IMG/VR virus record: IMGVR_UViG_3300030399_000045
Location: 1-39,408 of that record
Strand: one strand, 5' to 3'
Source of the DNA: a virus
Length of the DNA stretch: 39,408 nt
A program made the position numbers and the translations under genes. Of the stretch, positions 1-39,408 are shown piece after piece. The notes beneath the pieces were generated by a model. It was not told the DNA's origin, made no database searches, and saw nothing but the letters and a program-made list of their open reading frames with translations. The first letter of the stretch is position 1. The number at the start of each line of letters is the position of its first letter.

Positions 1-127
1 CAAAGACAAAAAGCTAATGAGCTTCAGGGTAAGCAAAAAGAAAAAGCGTTTGAACTTGAGGGAAAGAAAAAGGAAGCTTTAGCTCCATTTGAAGCAGGGT
101 TGGAAACGATTGATCAAATGAGAAAGA
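1..127. repeat. Terminal direct repeat, copy 1 (identical to 39282..39408)
   Basis: Base-by-base comparison shows nt 1-127 equal nt 39282-39408. The repeat lies inside an ORF that stays in phase across the junction. Confidence 0.97.
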
Positions 128-16672: not shown

Positions 16673-17107
16673 ATGGCCGATGTCGGAAGACCTCCTATAC
16701 CACTGGATTGGGATTTGATTGAGCAGTTGACGCAGGCGCATTGTAATGGAGTCGAAATTGCTGCACGGTTGCGTATTGATACAGATACGTTATACAATCG
16801 TGTTAAAGAAAAATATGGTATGAATTTCTCGTGTTATTCGGCAAAATTCCAGGGAAGCGGAAAGGCATTATTGCGTCAACAACAGTTCAACAAGGCACTT
16901 AATACTAAATCATCAGGTAACGTCCAAATGCTAATGTGGCTCGGCAAGCAGCTGTTGGGGCAGAAGGAAACCAAAGAAGATCTAAACATCGACGAAAACA
17001 CTCTCAAACAGTTTGAGAACATCATGAAAATGATGAAAGACTCTCAAGACTTATCTCCAGCCCTAAATATAGATGATAATAGCAACATCATCGACAGCCA
17101 GTCATAA
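16673..17107 (+). CDS. terS: Terminase small subunit-like HTH protein
   Basis: MADVGRPPIPLDWDLIEQL...GVEIAARLRIDTDTLYNRV... and MLMWLGKQLLGQKE are typical of one TerS family, from memory. Confidence 0.6.
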   Translation: MADVGRPPIPLDWDLIEQLTQAHCNGVEIAARLRIDTDTLYNRVKEKYGMNFSCYSAKFQGSGKALLRQQQFNKALNTKSSGNVQMLMWLGKQLLGQKETKEDLNIDENTLKQFENIMKMMKDSQDLSPALNIDDNSNIIDSQS

Positions 17108-20186: not shown

Positions 20187-20603
20187 ATGGATCGAAAACA
20201 CTTATACTTCCACTCATCAAACTTAAAATCAATAAGTGATATTAATAAAGATGAAAATTTTGAGCCAGCATTTCATTATAAGGATGTAAAAACTCATCCT
20301 AATGAATTTGGAAGGATTAAAACACGACAAAATTATTATCATTTACTCATTGGAAATTTGAGACAAAAAGGATGCGCCTGGTGTAAATCAGAACTTAAAA
20401 TAATAAAAACTAATTATCCTCCGACTATGGTTGGAGGTATTGCTATTGTATTACAGTGCATAAAATGCGGTTCGAGGGGACCTATTTGGGAAATGAATGA
20501 GAGTTTGGAAGGACATGAGGAAAGTATGGAAATAATTAAAGATAGAATGGAAGAAATGTATATGCAAAGAAAACCCTGGCATGATGATTTAGATGAAAGA
20601 TAA
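20187..20603 (+). CDS. Zinc-ribbon protein, Lar (restriction-alleviation)-like pattern
   Basis: CAWC...(22 aa)...CIKCGSRGP resembles the Lar-family ribbon, from memory. Confidence 0.35.
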   Translation: MDRKHLYFHSSNLKSISDINKDENFEPAFHYKDVKTHPNEFGRIKTRQNYYHLLIGNLRQKGCAWCKSELKIIKTNYPPTMVGGIAIVLQCIKCGSRGPIWEMNESLEGHEESMEIIKDRMEEMYMQRKPWHDDLDER

Positions 20604-26694: not shown

Positions 26695-26712
26695 AAAGTG
26701 CATAGGAAAATT

Positions 26713-26868
26713 ATGAAAAATAATCCCATACAGGGAATCGCAATTGCTATTGGATTATCAGACTATTTAGCTGTTCCCATGAGGCAGGCTGAGGATTTGA
26801 TTTTAAGAGATTACATCTTCAGCACTGCATCCGAAGCAGGAATGAGCAAAAAAAAGAAGAAGATATGA
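26713..26868 (+). CDS. Mini-ORF carrying an uninterrupted, diverged copy of a capsid-gene segment
   Basis: SDYLAVPMRQAEDLILRDYIFSTA here compares with capsid exon 3/4 SDRLAVAMRQAED|LILRDYIVSAA. Confidence 0.5.
   Translation: MKNNPIQGIAIAIGLSDYLAVPMRQAEDLILRDYIFSTASEAGMSKKKKKI
26833..26862. repeat. 30-bp direct repeat, copy 1
   Basis: GAAGCAGGAATGAGCAAAAAAAAGAAGAAG compared with 26990-27019; the first 29 of 30 nt contain a single mismatch. Confidence 0.85.
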
Positions 26869-27022: not shown

Positions 27023-27268
27023 ATGAAATGTGCAAAATGTAACAGCGAACCAAACGGCAAATCCTTCACTGAAGGAGGGATTTGTTATGTATATTGCCAG
27101 CTATGTACCGATATTTTGGAATCTTATCGGCAAATCACTCATCAAAGTTTTCTTACTCCTGATCAGAGATTGAGTCAGATAGAAAGGAATATACGAGAAG
27201 CAAAAAAGAATCGCGCACTAGGAAAAAGTCTATGGCAGAATAGAATAGATGAATTACAAAGTAGCTAA
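27023..27268 (+). CDS. Zinc-ribbon protein
   Basis: 81 aa with CAKC...CQLC. Confidence 0.45.
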   Translation: MKCAKCNSEPNGKSFTEGGICYVYCQLCTDILESYRQITHQSFLTPDQRLSQIERNIREAKKNRALGKSLWQNRIDELQSS

Positions 27269-27488
27269 AATAATGGAAGCTATTTGCTCAGAATGTAAAA
27301 AAATCTATGAAGAAAGAAAAGAAGAAATTTTTTGTTTGATAGGTGAAGTAGATATGATTTGTTATGAATGTGCAAAAAAATCTAATAATATAGAAAATGA
27401 TATTATGTATCTGTATTGTGGAACATGTGAAAAATACTTTCATATTTTTTATGATAAAGATCACATAGAACGATGCGTTAAGGAATAA
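27249..27488 (+). CDS. Cys-rich protein
   Basis: 79 aa with CSEC..CYEC..CGTC. The start is uncertain; 27273 is an alternative. Confidence 0.45.
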   Translation: MNYKVAKIMEAICSECKKIYEERKEEIFCLIGEVDMICYECAKKSNNIENDIMYLYCGTCEKYFHIFYDKDHIERCVKE

Positions 27489-27489
27489 A

Positions 27490-27517
27490 TTGACTAAAAT
27501 TAACTTTATGCTATATT
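27490..27517 (+). promoter_or_regulatory. Promoter TTGACT-N16-TATATT upstream of the capsid gene
   Basis: The hexamers and spacing were read directly. About 150 nt of structured leader follows. Confidence 0.6.
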
Positions 27518-27675
27518 GAAATTTCGCGTGCAGCGTTAAGCATATCGCGTAAGAAGCATCGCACCCTTCACAAGCGTTAGAGGTCTCGCATCCTCAAAGA
27601 TATGATCGAGAACTGACGTAATCAGGCTCGTCTACCGATCATCATATCACACGAATCTCTCAACCCAAGGTTGAC

Positions 27676-30259
27676 ATGATTACGACAACCGGGTCACTTG
27701 GTCCGATGATATTGCAGTCGCTCGCGCCTGCTATGTTATACGTTCCAACCCCCATGATGAACTATATCACAGTCTGCGACAAGGTCAGTATGCCAGCTAA
27801 TGGCGGCACGACTTGCAGATTTATGAGGCCAAGAGCCTTACAGCCCCCAACGATTCAGTTGGGTAATTCTGGGATCGATAAACGGTGTGTCGATTTAAAA
27901 CCTTTTCTGATTGACTCGGAAGCCCCTCATACGGGTAACGAGGCGCAAGCTGAGCAATATGCTCTTGCAGCGTGAACGACTGAGCGAAAGGGACGCGAAA
28001 GCGTATGCAACAGTCTGATCTTGGACTATATATAAAATCCAAGAGGGAGATTCGAAGAAGTTTCCCCGCCTTGAGCTGCAAGGGGTCAAAAAAGTAACAG
28101 GGTGCCACCGGCACAAGTACCGCAAAGAGATATAATCGATTGGCGCAAATGGCGTTTTTTGGAACTGGGTGTATAATTAACGAACAAGTTATACTTCAAG
28201 ACCAAGAGGGTATTTTACTTGCAGCATAATGTTGGCGGGTCTATAATATAACCAAACCAAGAGGTTATATGAAAGATCCGGAAGAAAAGGAAATTATGGC
28301 TTATATTGCAGGACTCATCGATGGTGATGGTCATATAGGAATAAGAATTGGACCAAGAGGAAAATTATCACCTTTGATCCAGTTTCACAACTCTGTAAAA
28401 CAGGTTTCTGTTTATTTGAATAATTTATTCGGAGGAACAGTTGCCTATGACAAGCCAAAAAAAGAAAATGACCGTACTATATGGAAGTGGATGCTTCAAG
28501 GTTATGATGGATGCCAAAACTTTTTAAATAAAGTTAAAGAATTTTTAATTTTGAAGAAAGATTCTGCCAATCTCATGATAGAATTCTTATCCAATCCCCA
28601 TGATACTAAAGATTATTATCAAATATCAAAAGATTTAAATTTAAATAGAAAAATTGGATCTTACAATATTGATAATATTAATAGAAAAACTAGTGAGTGC
28701 CCCTATTTCTGGGCTTATTTAGCTGGTATTATGGACACAGACGGATCTTTTTCAATTGAAAGACAAGTGCGTAAAGCCGGTCAAGATAGAATGAAAAATG
28801 ATTTGGTTAAATTTCGACCAAAGATAATCTTGACTATGGTTAGCGAGAGGTCTATTCAATATATCCTTTCCAATTGTGAATATGGAGGATTATCGATCGT
28901 GAAAGCTAAAACAGCTTTAAGAGGATCGGCTTTTAGATTCTCTATTCAATCAAGATCAGATTCCATTGAATTTTTGAAAAGATGTATTCCTTTTCTTCAA
29001 ATAAAAGCAGTTCAAGCGGTAAAAATTTTGAATTTCTGTAGAAATTATAATCCCACAAATGGATTAGCAAGAATTCCAGAATCTGAAAAAGAATATCGCG
29101 AGAAATGTTATAAAGAAATAGTAATGCTGAACAACACGCCCTCTTAGCTATGACGTAATTGGTGTTAGCTTGGGTCAGTGATAGACTGGCTGTGGCGATG
29201 CGTCAAGCCGAGGATAGAGATTATGTCCTCGATAAACCTACTCTGATTGACTTGGAAGCCTAAGGGAAACTATGGCGACAGGGCGGAAGGCGTAAGCCGC
29301 CGTGAGAGACTGAGTGAGTGGGACCGAAAGGTATGCGACAGTCCGAACCAGGCAACGAAAGGCTTGGAGATAGGCAGAAATGACCTATCCACGTCAACAG
29401 ACGGGGTAACAGGTTGTTAATCCTTCGTGACTACATCGTCAGCGCAGCAACAGATATCAACTGCGGTGGTGGTATAAATGGTGACAACCCAACGAATCTT
29501 GCATTGTCAGATTGCAGTTTGGTTGCTACCACTTTGGACACAAATAACGCTTACAAGTTCATGACCGGTATTGAAGGCATGGATCGTTTTGGCACAGGCC
29601 CAATACGTAATTGTTATTTTATGCTATCGTCAACTGAATTACAGAGTGATTTTGATAACTTGGTTGGTCAAGGAGTGCTCAACAACTGGAATTATCCTAC
29701 TAATACCAGTGCGTTGCCCAGCGAATGGGGCTCCGTATTCAATTTAAGAATACTAACCAGCTCTGAAGCACCTGTAGCTAGACAAGCCAGTCCTATGAAT
29801 CAGGATATTTATTATAATACTGTTCTTGGCAAGCAAGCGATCACGCATATAAATCAGGATGGGTTAATGATGGCCCATGTAAAATCTTTGGTAATTGACT
29901 TGGAACTCCTCGCAGCATAGTCTGACGGACAACAAGGGGCAAGTGATAGAAAAAATGATAGTTTTTTTTTCCGAACGGCCTGAACGACTAAACCCAGAGA
30001 CGCCGAAAGGCGATACGATAGTCTGAACTCTATGGAAACATAGAGAGAGCGATCCGAAGAGGTTGCTCCGCCTGGCAACAGGTCACAAAAGTAACAGAAT
30101 GATTCCATGAACCTGATTTATCGTGATCCATATTATTCTGGCATGTTGGCACAGAATGCCACTCTAGCGGTGAAGTTTGCGCAAGCGCAAGCATTAACGC
30201 AGGATACAGCGATCCGAAACCTACTCTGCACGCGTTTATCTAACGCTGTAGGACCATAA
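27676..30259 (+). CDS. Major capsid protein (HK97-fold type), mosaic gene
   Basis: Proposed exons are 27676..27879, 28101..~28217, ~29162..29215, 29417..29864 and 30102..30259. The conceptual product is 326 aa. It shows the capsid-like pattern ...GGTTCRFMRPRAL...LGNSG...AQMAFFG...NEQVILQDQ...SDRLAVAMRQAEDLILRDYI...DPYYSG...LAVKF... Confidence 0.75.
27880..28100 (+). mobile_element. Group I-type intron A (ORF-less, about 221 nt)
   Basis: P1 pairs exon AUCGAU (27874-79) with GUCGAU (27889-94), with U.G at the splice site. P7 is GACUG (27978-82) with CAGUC (28011-15). P8 is ACGC-GAAA-GCGU. The 3' end is GUAACAGGGUG. The frame requires the 3' splice site after G28100, uncertain by about 4 nt. 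Confidence 0.7.
28219..28247 (+). promoter_or_regulatory. Promoter TTGCAG-N17-TATAAT inside the capsid gene, upstream of the endonuclease ORF
   Basis: The hexamers and 17-nt spacer were read directly. Confidence 0.5.
28246..28270 (+). promoter_or_regulatory. Hairpin occluding the endonuclease SD and start codon
   Basis: ATATAACC (28246-53) pairs with GGTTATAT (28263-70), with a 9-nt loop. The 5' arm overlaps the -10 element, so it would be absent from transcripts initiated at the internal promoter. Confidence 0.5.
28269..29147 (+). CDS. LAGLIDADG homing endonuclease (double-motif)
   Basis: 292 aa with two motifs, YIAGLIDGDGHIG and YLAGIMDTDGSFS. RBS is AAGAGG. Confidence 0.9.
   Translation: MKDPEEKEIMAYIAGLIDGDGHIGIRIGPRGKLSPLIQFHNSVKQVSVYLNNLFGGTVAYDKPKKENDRTIWKWMLQGYDGCQNFLNKVKEFLILKKDSANLMIEFLSNPHDTKDYYQISKDLNLNRKIGSYNIDNINRKTSECPYFWAYLAGIMDTDGSFSIERQVRKAGQDRMKNDLVKFRPKIILTMVSERSIQYILSNCEYGGLSIVKAKTALRGSAFRFSIQSRSDSIEFLKRCIPFLQIKAVQAVKILNFCRNYNPTNGLARIPESEKEYREKCYKEIVMLNNTPS
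29216..29416 (+). mobile_element. Group I-type intron B (ORF-less, 201 nt)
   Basis: P1 pairs exon GAGGAU (29210-15) with GUCCUC (29225-30). P7 is GACUG (29308-12) with CAGUC (29339-43). P8 is ACC-GAAA-GGU. The 3' end is GUAACAGGUUG. Ligation gives QAED|LILRDY, identical to the uninterrupted copy at 26713. Confidence 0.75.
29865..30101 (+). mobile_element. Group I-type intron C (ORF-less, 237 nt)
   Basis: P1 pairs exon AUGGGU (29859-64) with GCCCAU (29873-78). P7 is GACUA (29986-90) with UAGUC (30019-23), which covaries relative to A and B. P8 is CGCC-GAAA-GGCG. The 3' end is GUAACAGAAUG. Ligation is in frame (..NQDG-Y-SMNLIY..). Confidence 0.75.
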
Positions 30260-30269
30260 GGAGGTTATC

Positions 30270-31442
30270 GTGGCTGAATATTCAAGACTGGCAAGTGGAC
30301 AGGTGGTATCAACAGGCGGTCAGACTGCGGTTGTATTACCATTTATCCCTAATTTCATTGAGATTTATAACCAGACAAGAGCTATTGCAGCTTCAGGGGT
30401 TACAAATGCATCATGGATGACTGATATGGGTCAGGGAAGTGCTTTCCGTAGTTTGTATGGTACAGGAAATCAATTCATTGGTCCAACATCAGCTCTAACA
30501 ACAAGTGGATTAACTGCAGGTACTGGTTTTACAACCATTCAAGCAGGATTGTCCCTTCAATATGGACCATCTTATTATCATGCGGTTGTTTCAACAGCTG
30601 ATTTTTCGATTGCTCAATCTGGTGCTGGTGGTACTGGTCCTGCAACTACTATTACTACGGTAACAGCGCATGGACTAACTAATGGTAATTGGATTATTTT
30701 CCAGAATCTGGCACAAACCGCTACAACGGGTATGAATCAGATTGCAGGTATTCCTTTTATGGTAAGTGGAGTCACAGCGACCACATTTACCATTACCTGG
30801 GATACTTCTGGATCTAATTACACAGCGTTTAATACAGCAACATCTACAGGTAATATCGGATCGTTTAAAAAGATCCTATATCCTGTCTTGTATGCACCTG
30901 GAGTATCGTTTATTTCCTTACTGACTCTTGCAAATGTGACAACTGTAACAACTACAGCACCTCACAATTTCCAGGTAGGTCAGGAAATAGCCTTCAGAAT
31001 ACCTCAACCGTGGGGACCTACTCAGTTGAATCCGTTACCAAACGTAGTCATTCCGGGTAGTCCGATGTATGGATATGTGATTTCTGTAACAAATAGCACA
31101 ACCTTTGTGTGTAACATTAACTCTACGGGTTTCACCGCGTTTAATGTTAACCAACCGTTTGCTAACGTTCCAGGGTTACAGTTCCCTCAAGTGGTTGCTG
31201 TAGGTGATGTGAATACGGGCGGATTGCCAATTTCGGCTGGTTCTCAATTGTATCCATCTCCACAGGTGTTTAATGGATTTACTGCTAGTACTTCAACTGG
31301 TGTGAATACTATTAATGGTCCTGCTATTCAGGGGGCTTATATTAATGCAACATTCCAAGGATTTATAATCGGAAGCGGTATCTCTGGTACTGTTGGAGAT
31401 GTAATTTATTGGCGTTCGTATTTACACGATTTGAATACATAA
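30270..31442 (+). CDS. Abundant structural protein candidate (decoration/fibre-like, beta-rich)
   Basis: GTG start 6 nt after AAGGAGG, 390 aa. It contains two copies of a T-x-T-T-x-x-H-x-(F/L)-x-x-G module. It is co-transcribed with the capsid gene and followed by a strong terminator. Confidence 0.55.
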   Translation: MAEYSRLASGQVVSTGGQTAVVLPFIPNFIEIYNQTRAIAASGVTNASWMTDMGQGSAFRSLYGTGNQFIGPTSALTTSGLTAGTGFTTIQAGLSLQYGPSYYHAVVSTADFSIAQSGAGGTGPATTITTVTAHGLTNGNWIIFQNLAQTATTGMNQIAGIPFMVSGVTATTFTITWDTSGSNYTAFNTATSTGNIGSFKKILYPVLYAPGVSFISLLTLANVTTVTTTAPHNFQVGQEIAFRIPQPWGPTQLNPLPNVVIPGSPMYGYVISVTNSTTFVCNINSTGFTAFNVNQPFANVPGLQFPQVVAVGDVNTGGLPISAGSQLYPSPQVFNGFTASTSTGVNTINGPAIQGAYINATFQGFIIGSGISGTVGDVIYWRSYLHDLNT

Positions 31443-39029: not shown

Positions 39030-39408
39030 ATGACAGATACTATTAAAGCAAAAAGAAAGCCATCAACTGCGCAGAGATTCAATGAAGTGATCAATCGTGG
39101 GATGGAAGAACTGGGAAATTATCGCCAGCAACAGGTTCAACAATTGCAGATGAATCAACGAAATAAAGCTCTCCAGCAATTAACTGGTCAGGATTTATCG
39201 GGTCTTTCAGATGATCAACAGAATCTTGCTGTTAAATATTCCATGGAAAATCAAAATCAGCGCATGAAATATGAAAATGATCAAAGACAAAAAGCTAATG
39301 AGCTTCAGGGTAAGCAAAAAGAAAAAGCGTTTGAACTTGAGGGAAAGAAAAAGGAAGCTTTAGCTCCATTTGAAGCAGGGTTGGAAACGATTGATCAAAT
39401 GAGAAAGA
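39030..39408 (+). CDS. 5' part of the junction-spanning 254-aa ORF
   Basis: The ATG at 39030 comes 2 nt after the previous stop. There is no stop before the window end, and it is in phase with 1..513. Confidence 0.6.
   Translation, partial: MTDTIKAKRKPSTAQRFNEVINRGMEELGNYRQQQVQQLQMNQRNKALQQLTGQDLSGLSDDQQNLAVKYSMENQNQRMKYENDQRQKANELQGKQKEKAFELEGKKKEALAPFEAGLETIDQMRK
39282..39408. repeat. Terminal direct repeat, copy 2
   Basis: Identical to nt 1-127. Confidence 0.97.

What the first reader, a model, noticed from the sequence alone, without database searches (positions are those of the whole stretch)
27676..30259. Major capsid gene carries three paralogous ORF-less group I-type introns
Seen directly:
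1. Capsid segments. ORF-track pieces 27676..27975 and 29414..29920, plus unlisted frames 28101..28226, 29159..29215 and 30098..30259, read as successive segments of one capsid-like protein. The segments are ...GGTTCRFMRPRALQPPTIQLGNSGID / GATGTSTAKRYNRLAQMAFFGTGCIINEQVILQDQEGIL / VLAWVSDRLAVAMRQAED / LILRDYIVSAATD...INQDG / YSMNLIYRDPYYSGMLAQNATLAVKF... Each runs into stops soon after its break.
2. Paralogous inserts. Three breaks hold 200-240 nt GC-richer segments that are clearly related. They share a 5' element YUGAUUGACUYGGAA (27907, 29243, 29891). They share a core GA(A/G)NGACU(G/A), then a hairpin with a GAAA loop, then AU(G/A)CGA(C/U)AGUC(U/C)GA, with another hairpin straight after. They share the 3' end GUAACAGNNUG.
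3. Individual P1 pairings. Each insert has its own 6-bp P1: AUCGAU/GUCGAU, GAGGAU/GUCCUC and AUGGGU/GCCCAU. The last exon base is always U opposite G, and the loops are 9, 9 and 8 nt.
4. Covariation. P7 is GACUG/CAGUC in A and B but GACUA/UAGUC in C. The P8 stems differ in sequence yet all close a GAAA loop.
5. Frame. Ligation at these sites keeps the reading frame. For intron B it reproduces QAED-LILRDY, exactly as in the uninterrupted copy at 26713.

Established knowledge: a U.G pair at the 5' splice site, a terminal G, and P7 strands bracketing P3'/P8 are hallmarks of group I introns. The AACGACUA...AUAGUCUG core and the ...AACANNNUG end look like T4 td-type phage introns as I remember them.

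Three sibling introns in one structural (capsid) gene is unusual. The 3' splice site of intron A is the weak point: the frame requires G28100, whereas B and C use the G four nt further on.
Basis: partly seen in the sequence, partly recalled or inferred. Interest (0 to 1): 0.85.

Follow-up and report, generated by a model that had tools for sequence, protein, structure and literature searches.

The report
Phage capsid gene riddled with introns
The major capsid gene of this complete ~39-kb phage genome is broken by three genuine group I self-splicing introns and by two further pieces (a 2-base insert and a 950-base endonuclease cassette) that have intron-style splice signals but no ribozyme, so they probably depend on the neighbouring ribozymes for removal.

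Summary
The three paralogous inserts are real. They belong to a very large phage group I intron family. In that family the P3, P4, P5, P6, P7 and P8 helices, the P3/P7 pseudoknot and P1 all covary strongly. Rfam finds nothing, but it also misses the T4 td intron, so that test does not decide.

Uninterrupted homologues (86% identical, N4-gp56 family) confirm junctions B and C exactly. They correct junction A: its 3' splice site is G28104, not G28100.

- A 2-nt UG at 28141-28142, right after a second AUCGAU that matches intron A's guide. In 25 related haplotypes this insert is 1-4 nt and always ends in G. It always co-occurs with intron A, and it sits between exons that are each under purifying selection in their own frames.
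- Insert X (28212-29161). It carries a LAGLIDADG gene and has no ribozyme core, but it has a canonical internal guide (P1 with a U.G pair, plus an adjacent P10) and a terminal G.

Relatives carry 35-95-nt core-less versions at three sites, each guide matching its own exon junction.

Best reading: three self-splicing introns, plus substrate-only introns removed by sibling ribozymes. The second part is inferred and has not been shown.

The parts
27490..27517 (+). Promoter-like site (TTGACT, 16-nt spacer, TATATT) upstream of the capsid gene. A 158-nt GC-richer leader follows it.
   Evidence: 10 of 12 consensus matches, with TG before the -10. This is a consensus match only.
27676..27879 (+). Capsid exon 1 (M...GNSGID). 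The last six bases, AUCGAU, form the 5' strand of P1 of intron A.
27880..28104 (+). Intron A, 225 nt, no ORF.
- IGS GUCGAU 27889-94.
- P10 guide CGGUG 27883-87, pairing with CACCG 28106-10.
- P3 27901-07 with 27986-92.
- P7 27978-82 with 28011-15.
- P8 27993-28004.
- 3' tail GUAACAGGGUG 28094-28104; the terminal G is G28104.
- The in-frame read-through peptide ends ...AEQYALAA, with the stop at 27973-75.
   Evidence: R1 scores 115.6 bits. Homologue alignment. P10 covaries between CGGUG/CACCG and CGGCG/CGCCG. Coordinates.
28105..28140 (+). Capsid exon 2a (PPAQVPQRDIID). It ends in a second AUCGAU (28135-40) that also matches intron A's IGS.
   Evidence: In 24 distinct sequences, 8 variable codons change only synonymously and 2 show V/I changes. 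In the two wrong frames there are 0 synonymous-only and 10 amino-acid-changing codons.
28141..28142 (+). Micro-insert UG. It lies after AUCGAU and ends in G, and it shifts the reading frame by 2. It is a candidate 2-nt intron excised by ribozyme A. A possible P10 forms between GUGU 27885-88 and GCGC 28143-46.
   Evidence: Identical in six independent assemblies. Across 25 haplotypes the insert is G, UG, AG, UAG, UAAG, UUAG or UGAG. All end in G and all have intron A upstream.
28143..28211 (+). Capsid exon 2b (AQMAFFGTGCIINEQVILQDQEG). The last eight bases, AAGAGGGU (28204-11), form the 5' strand of P1 of insert X.
   Evidence: Eleven distinct sequences all translate identically.
28212..29161 (+). 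Insert X, 950 nt, 32% GC, with no ribozyme core.
- In-frame tail ILLAA plus stop at 28227-29.
- TTGCAG 28219-24, 17-nt spacer, TATAAT 28242-47.
- SD AAGAGG 28259-64.
- LAGLIDADG ORF 28269-29147.
- Internal guide AACAC (P10, 29133-37) + GCCCUCUU (P1, 29138-45).
- 16-nt tail ending in G29161.
   Evidence: Pfam PF00961 and PF14528. No R1 hit on the + strand. The guide is conserved in 17+ loci. In L173 and L174 it lies outside the ORF, and there are two wobble-compatible variants. Shuffle test: 61 of 20000.
29162..29215 (+). Capsid exon 3 (VLAWVSDRLAVAMRQAED). The first five bases, GUGUU, pair with X's P10 guide. The last six, GAGGAU, form the 5' strand of P1 of intron B.
29216..29416 (+). Intron B, 201 nt, no ORF.
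- IGS GUCCUC 29225-30.
- P3 29237-43 with 29316-22.
- P7 29308-12 with 29339-43.
- P8 29323-32.
- 3' tail GUAACAGGUUG 29406-16.
- P10 of 5 bp between 29219-23 and 29418-22.
   Evidence: R1 scores 110 bits. Junction QAED|LILRDY is exact. The same site is occupied in L121, L138 and L173.
29417..29864 (+). Capsid exon 4 (LILRDY...INQDG plus the first base of a Tyr codon).
29865..30101 (+). Intron C, 237 nt, no ORF.
- IGS GCCCAU 29873-78.
- P3 29885-91 with 29994-30000.
- P7 29986-90 with 30019-23.
- P8 30001-12.
- 3' tail GUAACAGAAUG 30091-30101.
- The read-through peptide ends ...DLELLAA, with the stop at 29918-20.
   Evidence: R1 scores 92.4 bits. The junction restores a TAT Tyr codon, INQDG-Y-SMNL.
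30102..30259 (+). Capsid exon 5 (..SMNLIYRDPYY...AVGP, stop). The spliced CDS is 969 nt and encodes 322 aa.
   Evidence: TIGR04387 capsid_maj_N4 scores 63 bits (cut-off 60) in one stretch over residues 26-303, which spans all five junctions.

Best explanation
The window is a complete, circularly assembled podovirus-like genome of about 39.3 kb. Its N4-gp56-family major capsid gene (27676-30259) is interrupted five times.

(1) Supported by comparative evidence. Inserts A (27880-28104), B (29216-29416) and C (29865-30101) are compact, ORF-less group I introns of one very large phage intron family.
- Each presents its 5' splice site as a U.G pair in a 6-bp P1.
- Each has a P3-P8 / P4-P6 core with the P3/P7 pseudoknot and a bulged P7.
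- Each ends in GUAACAGNNUG, and the last G is the 3' splice site.
- Removing them gives a contiguous capsid reading frame.

(2) Inferred. The 2-nt UG at 28141-42 and the 950-nt insert X (28212-29161) are intron derivatives that kept only the substrate side of a group I intron.
- UG follows a second AUCGAU that pairs with intron A's guide GUCGAU, ends in G, and its 3' exon can form P10 with A's guide extension. Ribozyme A would excise it by ordinary transesterification. This is the reaction known in vitro as trans excision-splicing.
- X carries its own guide (P10 strand AACAC + P1 strand GCCCUCUU), a terminal G, and a LAGLIDADG homing-endonuclease gene with its own -10 box and SD inside the P1 loop. 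It has no catalytic core. One of the complete sibling ribozymes on the same transcript would splice it. B starts 54 nt downstream and A ends 107 nt upstream.

(3) Inferred. The endonuclease spreads X by DNA homing and probably co-converts the neighbouring ORF-less introns. In-frame ...LAA-stop tails at the 5' ends of A, C and X mark products of unspliced mRNA for degradation.
For: Capsid identity and junctions.
- There are 1363 homologues. The best are uninterrupted 322-323-aa proteins at 86% identity.
- The alignment is contiguous across B and C, and across A once 28105 is used.
- TIGR04387 is above its cut-off in one stretch across all junctions.

Group I nature.
- The 17-mer TGATTGACTYGGAAGCC occurs in at least 120 IMG/VR contigs.
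- In a 61-sequence core alignment, 98.7% of cells are paired and 21 of 31 pairs show compensatory changes. 0 of 500 shuffles reach this, and slid controls give 38-45%.
- The P7 extension pair takes AU 46, GC 13, CG 1 and UA 1 across a bulged nucleotide.
- P1: among 203 introns with 87 different guides, 149 have 6/6 pairs with U.G, against a mean of 12 when guides are swapped.
- P10 of intron A covaries.
- Family members split an RNR gene in Roseobacter phage CRP-118 and a coat gene in MW202674.
- Rfam's silence is uninformative. RF00028 finds the three Twort introns but not T4 td. R1 places weak hits (15-17 bits) on all three Twort introns.

The sequence is real. Six independent assemblies are 100% identical over 4 kb.

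Micro-insert.
- In 25 haplotypes the insert is 1-4 nt (G 11, UG 6, AG 3, UAG 2, UAAG, UUAG and UGAG 1 each).
- All follow AUCGAU, all end in G, and all have intron A upstream.
- It is absent where intron A is absent.
- Some versions contain in-frame stops, and some lineages lack a slippery run.
- The flanking exons are each under purifying selection in their own frames.

Insert X.
- The same site and the same guide are found in 17+ loci. In L173 and L174 the guide lies outside the ORF. Variants AGCAU and AACAU keep pairing only through G.U wobble.
- HE-less mini versions of 36-93 nt keep the guide and the tail.
- Core-less inserts at two other capsid sites carry guides matched to their own junctions. 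One shows a compensatory change: UUCGGU/GCCGAA versus UUUGGU/GCCAAA.
- Shuffle tests reach the observed pairing in 2-69 of 20000 trials.
- Every such gene also holds at least one complete ribozyme.

Chemical precedent. Ribozymes excise a single G that follows a U, using P1 + P10 and their own 3' G (PMC2532722). Engineered group I 'spliceozymes' remove 100-nt introns in E. coli (PMC4094466).
Against: - There is no RNA or protein data, so nothing here shows that any of the five pieces is actually removed.
- No Rfam hit, even at E<=10.
- The match to experimentally proven introns is weak: 15-17 bits on Twort and nothing significant on T4 td.
- A major capsid protein needs very efficient processing. 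Second-cycle or trans reactions are usually slow and compete with reverse splicing (PMC2532722).
- X's last three bases are an in-frame UUG or AUG in 16 of 17 lineages, so a separately translated C-terminal fragment cannot be excluded.
- It is unknown which ribozyme would serve X, and no docking element was found.
- In lineages where the micro-insert is a single G, exon 2b also lacks the G of a GAR codon 39 nt downstream. The simple model does not explain this.
- P10 of intron C is weak.
Confidence: 0.75

Rival explanations
1. Split capsid plus translational recoding. A, B and C are introns, but X is simply an endonuclease gene that split the capsid gene into two cistrons. The N-terminal part would end ...QEGILLAA*. 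The C-terminal part would start at UUG 29159 or GUG 29162. The UG would be bypassed by ribosomal frameshifting, for example a -1 shift at U_UUU_UUG 28153-59.
For: - An in-frame stop lies 6 codons into X, and an in-frame UUG or AUG is the last triplet of X in 16 of 17 lineages.
- The HE stop codon lies 11 nt before that triplet, so translational coupling is conceivable.
- A T6 run exists in the window.
- Genes split by homing endonucleases that keep function are known, e.g. Aeh1 nrdA (from memory).
Against: - Micro-insert lengths of 1, 2, 3 and 4 nt would need different kinds of frameshift.
- UAG and UAAG versions put a stop codon directly after IID. L173, L174 and L186 encode FF as UUC UUC, with no slippery run.
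- L162 ends X in AAG, not a start codon.
- There is no SD before the putative restart, although this genome uses strong SDs (AAGAGG before the HE, AAGGAGG before the next gene).
- This model does not explain an antisense copy of the exon junction with a G opposite the splice-site U. That copy is conserved in coding and non-coding contexts and at three different sites.
- A C-terminal LAA tail would be expected to destabilise the N-terminal fragment (inference).
Confidence: 0.1
2. Defective gene. The UG frameshift and X are unrepaired lesions, so this capsid gene is a pseudogene in a decaying or helper-dependent element.
For: As it stands the DNA cannot encode a full capsid protein without extra processing. 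All six identical contigs may come from one site.
Against: - The same two lesions recur in many diverged lineages (HE 62-86% identical). The exons on both sides change almost only synonymously.
- The genome is complete, with intact portal and tail genes.
- The population was recovered in at least six assemblies.
Confidence: 0.04
3. Intron A uses G28100 as its terminal G, which restores the frame without removing UG. The product reads GID-GATGTSTAKRYNRL-AQMAFF.
For: This choice keeps one open frame from exon 1 into AQMAFF. G28100, G28101 and G28102 are available guanosines.
Against: - It replaces 12 nearly invariant residues (PPAQVPQRDIID) that are still encoded perfectly from 28105 and evolve synonymously in that frame.
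- The family alignment and the covarying P10 place the splice site after GUAACAGNNUG.
- It cannot work in relatives whose micro-insert is 1, 3 or 4 nt.
Confidence: 0.03
4. The small core-less inserts are autonomous minimal ribozymes, like the 56-81-nt putative group I introns of fungal rDNA, and need no sibling.
For: Harris and Rogers report 63-75-nt Phialophora introns with only P1, P7 and P10, one of which splices in vitro (PMC3160393).
Against: - The 35-36-nt versions leave only 13-18 unstructured nucleotides beyond the guide, with no P7-like helix.
- A 1-4-nt insert cannot be catalytic.
- Every case sits in a gene that also has complete ribozymes.
Confidence: 0.05

Closest known systems
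Staphylococcus phage Twort orf142 introns (three group I introns in one structural-module gene; GenBank AF132670, Landthaler & Shub 1999)
   Same: - Several related, ORF-less group I introns sit in one late gene.
- They share core motifs: AACGACUA ... AUAGUCUGAAC, a GAAA-capped P9, and a GUAACA..UG 3' end.
- Exon skipping by neighbouring ribozymes was reported there (title of the 1999 paper, from memory).
   Different: - Twort introns have P2 and a 70-80-nt P7.1/P7.2 insertion and are found by Rfam at 64-101 bits. A, B and C have neither element and get no Rfam hit.
- No core-less partners or micro-inserts are described for Twort.
Capsid-gene introns of mycobacteriophage LittleE and lactococcal phage Tuc2009 (PMC3706429)
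   Same: An intron interrupts a major capsid gene of a tailed phage. LittleE's intron carries a homing endonuclease and is spliced efficiently.
   Different: Those genes have a single intron each. Here there are three complete introns plus two dependent pieces, and relatives carry introns at at least ten different capsid sites.
Trans excision-splicing (TES) by group I-derived ribozymes (Bell, Dotson, Testa; PMC2532722) and engineered 'spliceozymes' (PMC4094466)
   Same: - The TES substrate is a 5' exon ending in U and paired to the ribozyme guide (P1), then a bridge ending in G (as short as one G), then a 3' exon paired to the guide extension (P10).
- This is the layout of AUCGAU|UG|GCGC in relation to intron A's guide.
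- Spliceozymes remove 64-100-nt ribozyme-less introns from an mRNA in E. coli.
   Different: Those are laboratory constructs. Here the arrangement is natural, conserved and lies in an essential gene. Insert X carries its own guide strand instead of using the ribozyme's.
Small (56-81 nt) putative group I introns of fungal SSU rDNA (Phialophora, Porpidia; PMC3160393)
   Same: They are very short intervening sequences that keep P1 and P10 and end in G.
   Different: - The fungal ones are proposed to keep P7 and to self-splice.
- The phage mini-inserts (35-95 nt) and the micro-inserts (1-4 nt) have no P7.
- The phage inserts lie in protein-coding genes next to complete ribozymes.
Collaborative homing of free-standing endonucleases with ORF-less introns (cyanophage psbA, Zeng/Bonocora/Shub 2009; from memory)
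   Same: An endonuclease gene with its own expression signals lies beside ORF-less introns. Its cleavage of intronless alleles would mobilise them by co-conversion.
   Different: Here the endonuclease cassette sits inside the gene itself and has intron-type splice signals.
Split or trans-spliced group I introns of organelles (from memory)
   Same: The catalytic RNA and the splice sites do not lie on one continuous intron.
   Different: Those reassemble the two halves of one intron. Here a complete, independently spliced intron would also serve a separate, core-less one.

Membership tests
Group I intron (A, B, C) | The 5' splice site follows a U that pairs with G in a P1 helix formed with an internal guide near the intron's 5' end | tested here: met
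   All three have a 6-bp P1 with a terminal U.G pair. Family-wide, 149 of 203 introns with 87 different guides meet this, against about 12 when guides are swapped.
Group I intron (A, B, C) | The intron ends in G at the junction defined by intronless homologues | tested here: met
   The terminal bases are G28104, G29416 and G30101. The exon junctions reproduce GID|PPAQ, QAED|LILRDY and QDG-Y-SMN.
Group I intron (A, B, C) | Conserved core order P3-P4-P5-P5'-P4'-P6-P6'-P7-P3'-P8-P8'-P7', with a P3/P7 pseudoknot supported by covariation | tested here: met
   98.7% of cells are paired and 21 of 31 pairs are compensatory. 0 of 500 shuffles reach this, and slid controls give 38-45%.
Group I intron (A, B, C) | A guanosine-binding P7 with a bulged nucleotide before an invariant G-C pair | tested here: met
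   The G-C pair is present in 60 of 61 sequences. The flanking pair across the bulge takes AU 46, GC 13, CG 1 and UA 1. This is at the level of sequence and pairing only.
Group I intron (A, B, C) | P10 between the guide extension and the 3' exon | tested here: met
   A has 5 bp and covaries (CGGUG/CACCG versus CGGCG/CGCCG). B has 5 bp. C has only 3-4 bp, which is weak.
Group I intron (A, B, C) | A match to the curated model Rfam RF00028 | tested here: not met
   No hit at the gathering score or at E<=10. In the control run the model finds the Twort introns but misses T4 td. Its incompleteness for phage introns is also noted in PMC11878797.
Group I intron (A, B, C) | Guanosine-dependent self-splicing | not testable with these tools
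   Needs in vitro transcription or RT-PCR.
Subgroup IA2 (T4 td / Twort type) | P7.1/P7.2 helices between P7 and P3' | tested here: not met
   J7/3 is only 2-3 nt in A, B, C and the family. Twort has a 70-80-nt insertion at that position.
Subgroup IA2 (T4 td / Twort type) | Significant model or sequence similarity to proven IA2 introns | tested here: inconclusive
   R1 gives 15-17 bits (E 0.02-0.09) on all three Twort introns and 9-11 bits on the td region.
LAGLIDADG homing endonuclease (ORF 28269-29147) | Two LAGLIDADG motifs and a Pfam match | tested here: met
   PF00961 at 3.7e-9 and PF14528 at 1.8e-5. The motifs read LIDGDGHIG and IMDTDGSFS.
Intron-encoded homing endonuclease in a self-splicing intron (insert X) | The host intron has its own ribozyme core | tested here: not met
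   No R1 hit on the + strand within 28212-29161 with filters off. HE-less variants are only 36-93 nt long.
N4-gp56 family major capsid protein | The curated equivalog model is above its cut-off over the whole protein | tested here: met
   TIGR04387 scores 63 bits (cut-off 60) over residues 26-303. phrog_1357 scores 5e-10.
TES-type substrate (micro-insert 28141-42) | The 5' exon ends in U and pairs with a ribozyme guide, the excised bridge ends in G, and the 3' exon can form P10 | tested here: met
   AUCGAU pairs with GUCGAU. All 25 haplotypes end in G. A 4-bp P10 (GYGY/GCRC) is possible in every lineage.
TES-type substrate (micro-insert 28141-42) | The excision actually happens | not testable with these tools
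   No transcript data. No spliced protein is present in the 5.8-billion-protein collection; the best hit is 86% identical.

The most novel reading that the evidence does not exclude
This capsid gene and its relatives contain natural 'substrate-only' group I introns. They come in two forms.
- 1-4-nt micro-introns that end in G and borrow the guide of a neighbouring intron.
- 35-950-nt inserts that keep only a P1/P10 guide and a terminal G, with or without a homing-endonuclease gene.

Both forms would be excised by complete sibling ribozymes on the same transcript. That would be a naturally evolved split between catalytic RNA and catalytically inert introns. It would be a group I counterpart of the step thought to have led from group II introns to the spliceosome, and a natural version of trans excision-splicing. 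A linked feature is that these introns encode in-frame ssrA-like ...LAA tails that would destroy proteins made from unspliced mRNA.
Probability: 0.5. Interest if true: 0.95.

Novelty: new variant of a known kind. Interest (0 to 1): 0.8.

Why it matters
Group I introns in phage late genes are known, so the three complete introns alone add only a large, Rfam-invisible family and an unusually intron-dense capsid gene.

The two extra pieces change the picture. They are conserved across many lineages. They sit between exons that are clearly translated. They carry exactly the signals a group I ribozyme reads: U.G in P1, an adjacent P10 and a terminal G. Yet they cannot catalyse anything themselves.

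If sibling ribozymes remove them, three things follow.
1. It would be the first natural case of group I ribozymes acting as shared splicing machinery for inert introns.
2. It would show that selfish introns can decay to a few nucleotides without killing the host gene.
3. It would give a directly testable system, one 2.7-kb transcript, for how trans-acting splicing catalysts evolve.

There are practical consequences too.
- Gene callers break these capsid genes into fragments.
- Rfam-based intron surveys miss the family.
- Public records already contain unannotated members: the CRP-118 RNR gene, the MW202674 coat gene, and Desulfovibrio phage 7757.

Tried and rejected
- Rfam gave nothing on the window (gathering score), on 27450-30400 (E<=10), or on the CRP-118 and phage 7757 members. 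I kept this as a fact but rejected it as a refutation after the T4 td control.
- tblastn of the capsid against 50,697 phage records found no match, so there is no cultured relative.
- X as an intein: rejected. There is an in-frame stop at 28227-29, and the HE ORF and exon 3 are in different frames.
- X hiding a diverged ribozyme: rejected. R1 with filters off finds nothing on the + strand, and 36-nt versions exist.
- UG as an assembly error: rejected by six identical independent assemblies and by conservation of the site in 25 haplotypes.
- -1 frameshifting at U_UUU_UUG: rejected as a general mechanism. Relatives have 1-, 3- and 4-nt inserts, in-frame stops and UUC UUC codons.
- Translational hopping: rejected. 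No matching landing codon exists.
- Pairing between X's conserved 5' segment CUUGCAGC and GCUGCAAG in intron A's last hairpin: rejected. L175 and L176 encode the same LAA tail with synonymous codons (UUA GCC GCA), so the conservation is at the peptide level.
- Exon skipping by ribozyme B using GAGGGU 28206-11 as an alternative 5' site (one G.U replaces an A-U pair): noted as possible, but it would delete the conserved exon 3. Relatives with other B-type guides also cannot do it.
- I could not explain the second anomaly of the single-G lineages (see Noticed in passing).
- I did not find which element, if any, docks X's guide helix onto a particular ribozyme.

Full report
WHAT THE WINDOW IS

The 39,408-nt window carries a 127-nt terminal repeat, so it is a complete circular assembly of about 39.3 kb. 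It is 38.5% GC. It encodes a P22-type portal and a downstream structural module.

The conceptual capsid product has more than 1300 homologues. The best are uninterrupted 322-323-aa 'N4-gp56 family major capsid proteins' at 86% identity. No cultured phage relative exists among 50,697 records.

CHECK OF THE OBSERVATION

The three inserts are related (68% mean column identity). They are GC-richer than the genome: 47.5%, 52% and 45% against 38.5%. The P1 helices, loop sizes, P7 variants and GAAA-capped P8 stems are exactly as described.

Alignment with twelve intronless homologues shows that junctions B (QAED|LILRDY) and C (INQDG-Y-SMNL) are exact. Junction A is not. Homologues read GID|PPAQVPQRDIID|AQMAFF, and PPAQVPQRDIID is encoded perfectly from 28105.

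Two further interruptions were overlooked:
- two extra bases (UG, 28141-42) after IID;
- a 950-nt insert X (28212-29161) between QDQEG and VLAWVS, which carries a 292-aa double-motif LAGLIDADG ORF.

ARE A, B AND C GROUP I INTRONS?

Rfam gives no hit, even at E<=10. As a control I fetched the original Twort orf142 record and a T4-type td locus. RF00028 finds the three Twort introns at 64-101 bits but misses the td intron completely. Its silence therefore cannot refute the claim. A 2025 survey makes the same point about phage introns (PMC11878797).

Positive evidence comes from comparison.
- The conserved 17-mer TGATTGACTYGGAAGCC occurs in at least 120 IMG/VR contigs.
- Members sit between the two halves of a ribonucleotide reductase gene in Roseobacter phage CRP-118 and of a coat gene in GenBank MW202674.
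- I tested the group I core order P3-P4-P5-P6-P7-P3'-P8-P7', with P7 as a pseudoknot, on a 61-sequence alignment. 98.7% of cells are paired and 21 of 31 pairs have compensatory changes. No shuffle out of 500 reaches this, and slid controls drop to 38-45%.
- The pair that extends P7 across a bulged nucleotide takes all four Watson-Crick forms. This is the geometry of the guanosine site.
- Among 203 distinct family introns with 87 different guide hexamers, 149 form a perfect 6-bp P1 with a terminal U.G at a fixed position. When guides are swapped the mean is 12.
- Intron A's P10 covaries: CGGUG/CACCG in the window, CGGCG/CGCCG in relatives.
- The covariance model R1 scores A, B and C at 116, 110 and 92 bits and nothing else in the window above 17 bits. 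It places its best outside hits, weakly (15-17 bits), on all three Twort introns with P3, J3/4, P7 and J8/7 aligned.

The family has no P2 and no P7.1/P7.2, so it is not IA2 (td/Twort type). I leave the subgroup open.

THE GENE STRUCTURE

The exons are 27676-27879, 28105-28140, 28143-28211, 29162-29215, 29417-29864 and 30102-30259. Together they give a 969-nt CDS and a 322-aa protein. That protein passes the curated N4 capsid model in one stretch across all five junctions.

THE 2-NT INSERT

Six independent assemblies are 100% identical over 4 kb, so UG is real. It directly follows a second AUCGAU (28135-40). That is the same hexamer that ends exon 1 and pairs with intron A's guide GUCGAU.

Searches of viral and metagenome contigs, made without requiring any intron, gave 25 distinct haplotypes of this site. 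The insert is G (11), UG (6), AG (3), UAG (2), UAAG, UUAG or UGAG.
- Every insert ends in G and follows AUCGAU.
- Every insert has intron A, with guide GUCGAU, 36 nt upstream.
- Capsid genes without intron A have no insert.
- Exon 2a varies almost only synonymously in the PPAQ frame: 8 synonymous-only codons and 2 V/I changes, against 0 and 10 in the wrong frames.
- Eleven distinct exon 2b sequences all encode AQMAFFGTGCIINEQVILQDQEG.

Both exons are therefore translated in frames that the insert separates. This is a conserved recoding site.

Ribosomal frameshifting does not fit. The lengths are 1, 2, 3 and 4 nt. Two versions are or contain a stop codon directly after IID. Three lineages lack any slippery run.

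The layout is the substrate of trans excision-splicing: a U-ended 5' exon paired to a guide, a bridge ending in G, and a 3' exon able to form a 4-bp P10 with the guide extension in every lineage. In that reaction group I ribozymes excise as little as one G, using their own 3'-terminal G (PMC2532722). The closest relatives of intron A (L025, L061) sit as full introns at exactly this IID| site, with the same P1. That suggests the micro-insert is the remnant of such a copy.

INSERT X

HE relatives at 62-86% identity lie at the same capsid site in many lineages. Four features are conserved.
1. An in-frame stop a few codons in, usually after ...LAA.
2. A TATAAT box, an SD and the HE ORF.
3. The sequence AACAC-GCCCUCUU. 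This is the antisense of the ligated junction AAGAGGGU|GUGUU, with a G opposite the splice-site U. In other words, it is a textbook internal guide with P1 and an adjacent P10.
4. A tail of 13-17 nt ending in G.

The guide is coding in the window (..NTPS*) but lies after the stop codon in L173 and L174. The only variants (AGCAU, AACAU) keep pairing through G.U wobble. The conservation is therefore at the RNA level.

X has no ribozyme core. HE-less versions of 93, 56, 45, 44 and 36 nt keep just the guide and the tail.

Two other capsid sites in relatives carry core-less inserts with the same design but their own guides.
- AFFG|TGC: guide GCCAGU-GCCGAA, 61 nt. There is a compensatory change, UUCGGU/GCCGAA versus UUUGGU/GCCAAA.
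- DRLA|VAM: guide GCUAU-GGCCAG, 35 nt.

Eleven contiguous P1+P10 pairs are reached in only 2-69 of 20,000 composition-preserving shuffles per case. All such genes contain complete family ribozymes. In the window, B begins 54 nt after X.

MECHANISM

Supported by comparison, though no transcript or protein data show it: A, B and C have all the sequence-level features of self-splicing group I introns, and their removal restores the capsid frame.

Inferred: UG is removed by ribozyme A. This would happen either in cis with exogenous G or by the excised intron's terminal G (the TES route). X's P1/P10 helix with its terminal G is processed by a sibling core.

Also inferred:
- the LAGLIDADG enzyme spreads X by homing and drags the adjacent ORF-less introns with it;
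- the ...LAA tails tag products of unspliced mRNA for degradation.

I put 0.9 on the first part and about 0.5-0.55 on sibling-dependent removal.

RIVALS

- A two-cistron capsid with recoding is the main rival. X ends in an in-frame UUG or AUG in 16 of 17 lineages. But it does not explain the guides, the U.G pair, L162's AAG ending, the missing SD, or the micro-insert lengths.
- A pseudogene is contradicted by purifying selection across lineages.
- Autonomous mini-ribozymes, as proposed for 56-81-nt fungal rDNA introns (PMC3160393), are implausible at 1-36 nt.

KNOWN VERSUS NEW

Already known:
- several group I introns in one phage late gene (Twort orf142);
- capsid-gene introns (LittleE, Tuc2009; PMC3706429);
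- two or three introns per gene in Bastillevirinae (PMC11878797).

In this paper library I found no natural precedent for the following:
- conserved 1-4-nt inserts with group I splice signals;
- core-less introns with a full internal guide sitting next to complete ribozymes;
- the frequent in-frame ssrA-like tails.

LIMITS

Everything rests on sequence comparison. No transcript or protein data were available, and no spliced product is present in the protein collection. The single-G lineages have a second, unexplained anomaly.

Noticed in passing
window 27880-27975, 28212-28229, 29865-29920; family loci L003-L208: Read-through from the upstream exon into the introns ends in ssrA-like tails: A ...NEAQAEQYALAA*, C ...DLELLAA*, X ...QEGILLAA*. 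Family-wide, 50 of 120 introns end in AA* in the exon frame (30 of them LAA), against 3 of 240 in the other frames. L175 and L176 encode LAA with synonymous codons. This suggests a degron for products of unspliced mRNA. I found no paper on it.
   Followed up: partly
L133/L157, L134/L144, L137/L166, L162, L184, L185, L194-L199, L205 (relatives, not the window): Where the micro-insert is a single G, exon 2b is one base short. AAU A(G/A) CAR GUG replaces AAU GAR CAR GUG, so the G of the Glu codon is missing 39 nt downstream. In these lineages I-I-N is always AUC AUC AAU, and AUCAAU is one mismatch from the guide target. It looks as if one G has moved from one site to the other. A ribozyme-mediated G transfer (excision, then insertion) would restore the canonical mRNA, but this is pure speculation.
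   Followed up: partly
window 26698-26868: A small ORF (56 aa) in the AT-rich region upstream of the capsid gene contains LSDYLAVPMRQAEDLILRDYIFSTASE. This is a recoded, AT-rich copy of capsid residues ~107-133 that spans intron site B without an intron. It has no orthologue in any related locus; only the capsid genes themselves match it. Its origin and role are unknown.
   Followed up: partly
relatives L010, L022, L031, L052, L089, L121, L175-L182, L191: Capsid genes of this family carry family introns at at least ten different sites: LAPAM|, |NYITV, GID|, PQRD|, IID|, AQMA|, FFG|, NEQV|, QEG|, LAVAM|, MRQA|, MRQAED|, GD|NPT and NWNYP|. Some genes have five or more interruptions.
   Followed up: partly
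L001 (OR420741.1 35056-35455), L131 (MW202674.1 ~16872-17088), L002 (OR395405.1): Public phage records hold unannotated members of this intron family. One lies between two 'ribonucleotide reductase' CDS of Roseobacter phage CRP-118. One lies between two 'P22 coat protein' CDS of Podoviridae sp. ctn9Y15. One is in Desulfovibrio phage 7757, where an ORF follows P9.
   Followed up: partly
window 1-127 and 39282-39408: There is a 127-nt identical terminal repeat. The contig is a complete circular assembly, and the true genome is about 39,281 bp.
   Followed up: yes
window 27518-27675: A 158-nt leader lies between the promoter-like site and the capsid start codon. It is GC-richer (~46-50%) than the AT-rich region just upstream (27-34%). 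I did not examine its structure or function.
   Followed up: no
window 20278-20395 (+): This is the weakest notable R1 hit (16.8 bits, rough E 0.056). It lies inside ORF 20187-20603 and has a UAAAAAC..AAUGAAUUUGGAAGG..CGACA layout. It could be chance or a decayed intron fragment.
   Followed up: no
window 27023-27488: Two small AT-rich ORFs (81 and 79 aa) with paired CxxC motifs lie directly upstream of the capsid promoter. This ~800-nt region is 27-34% GC and looks like an insertion relative to the GC-richer structural genes.
   Followed up: no
window 28206-28211 vs 29225-29230: The end of exon 2b (GAGGGU) can also pair with intron B's guide GUCCUC, with one G.U replacing an A-U pair. Ribozyme B could therefore in principle skip X and exon 3 together, an in-frame 18-aa deletion. 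This echoes the exon skipping reported for Twort.
   Followed up: no
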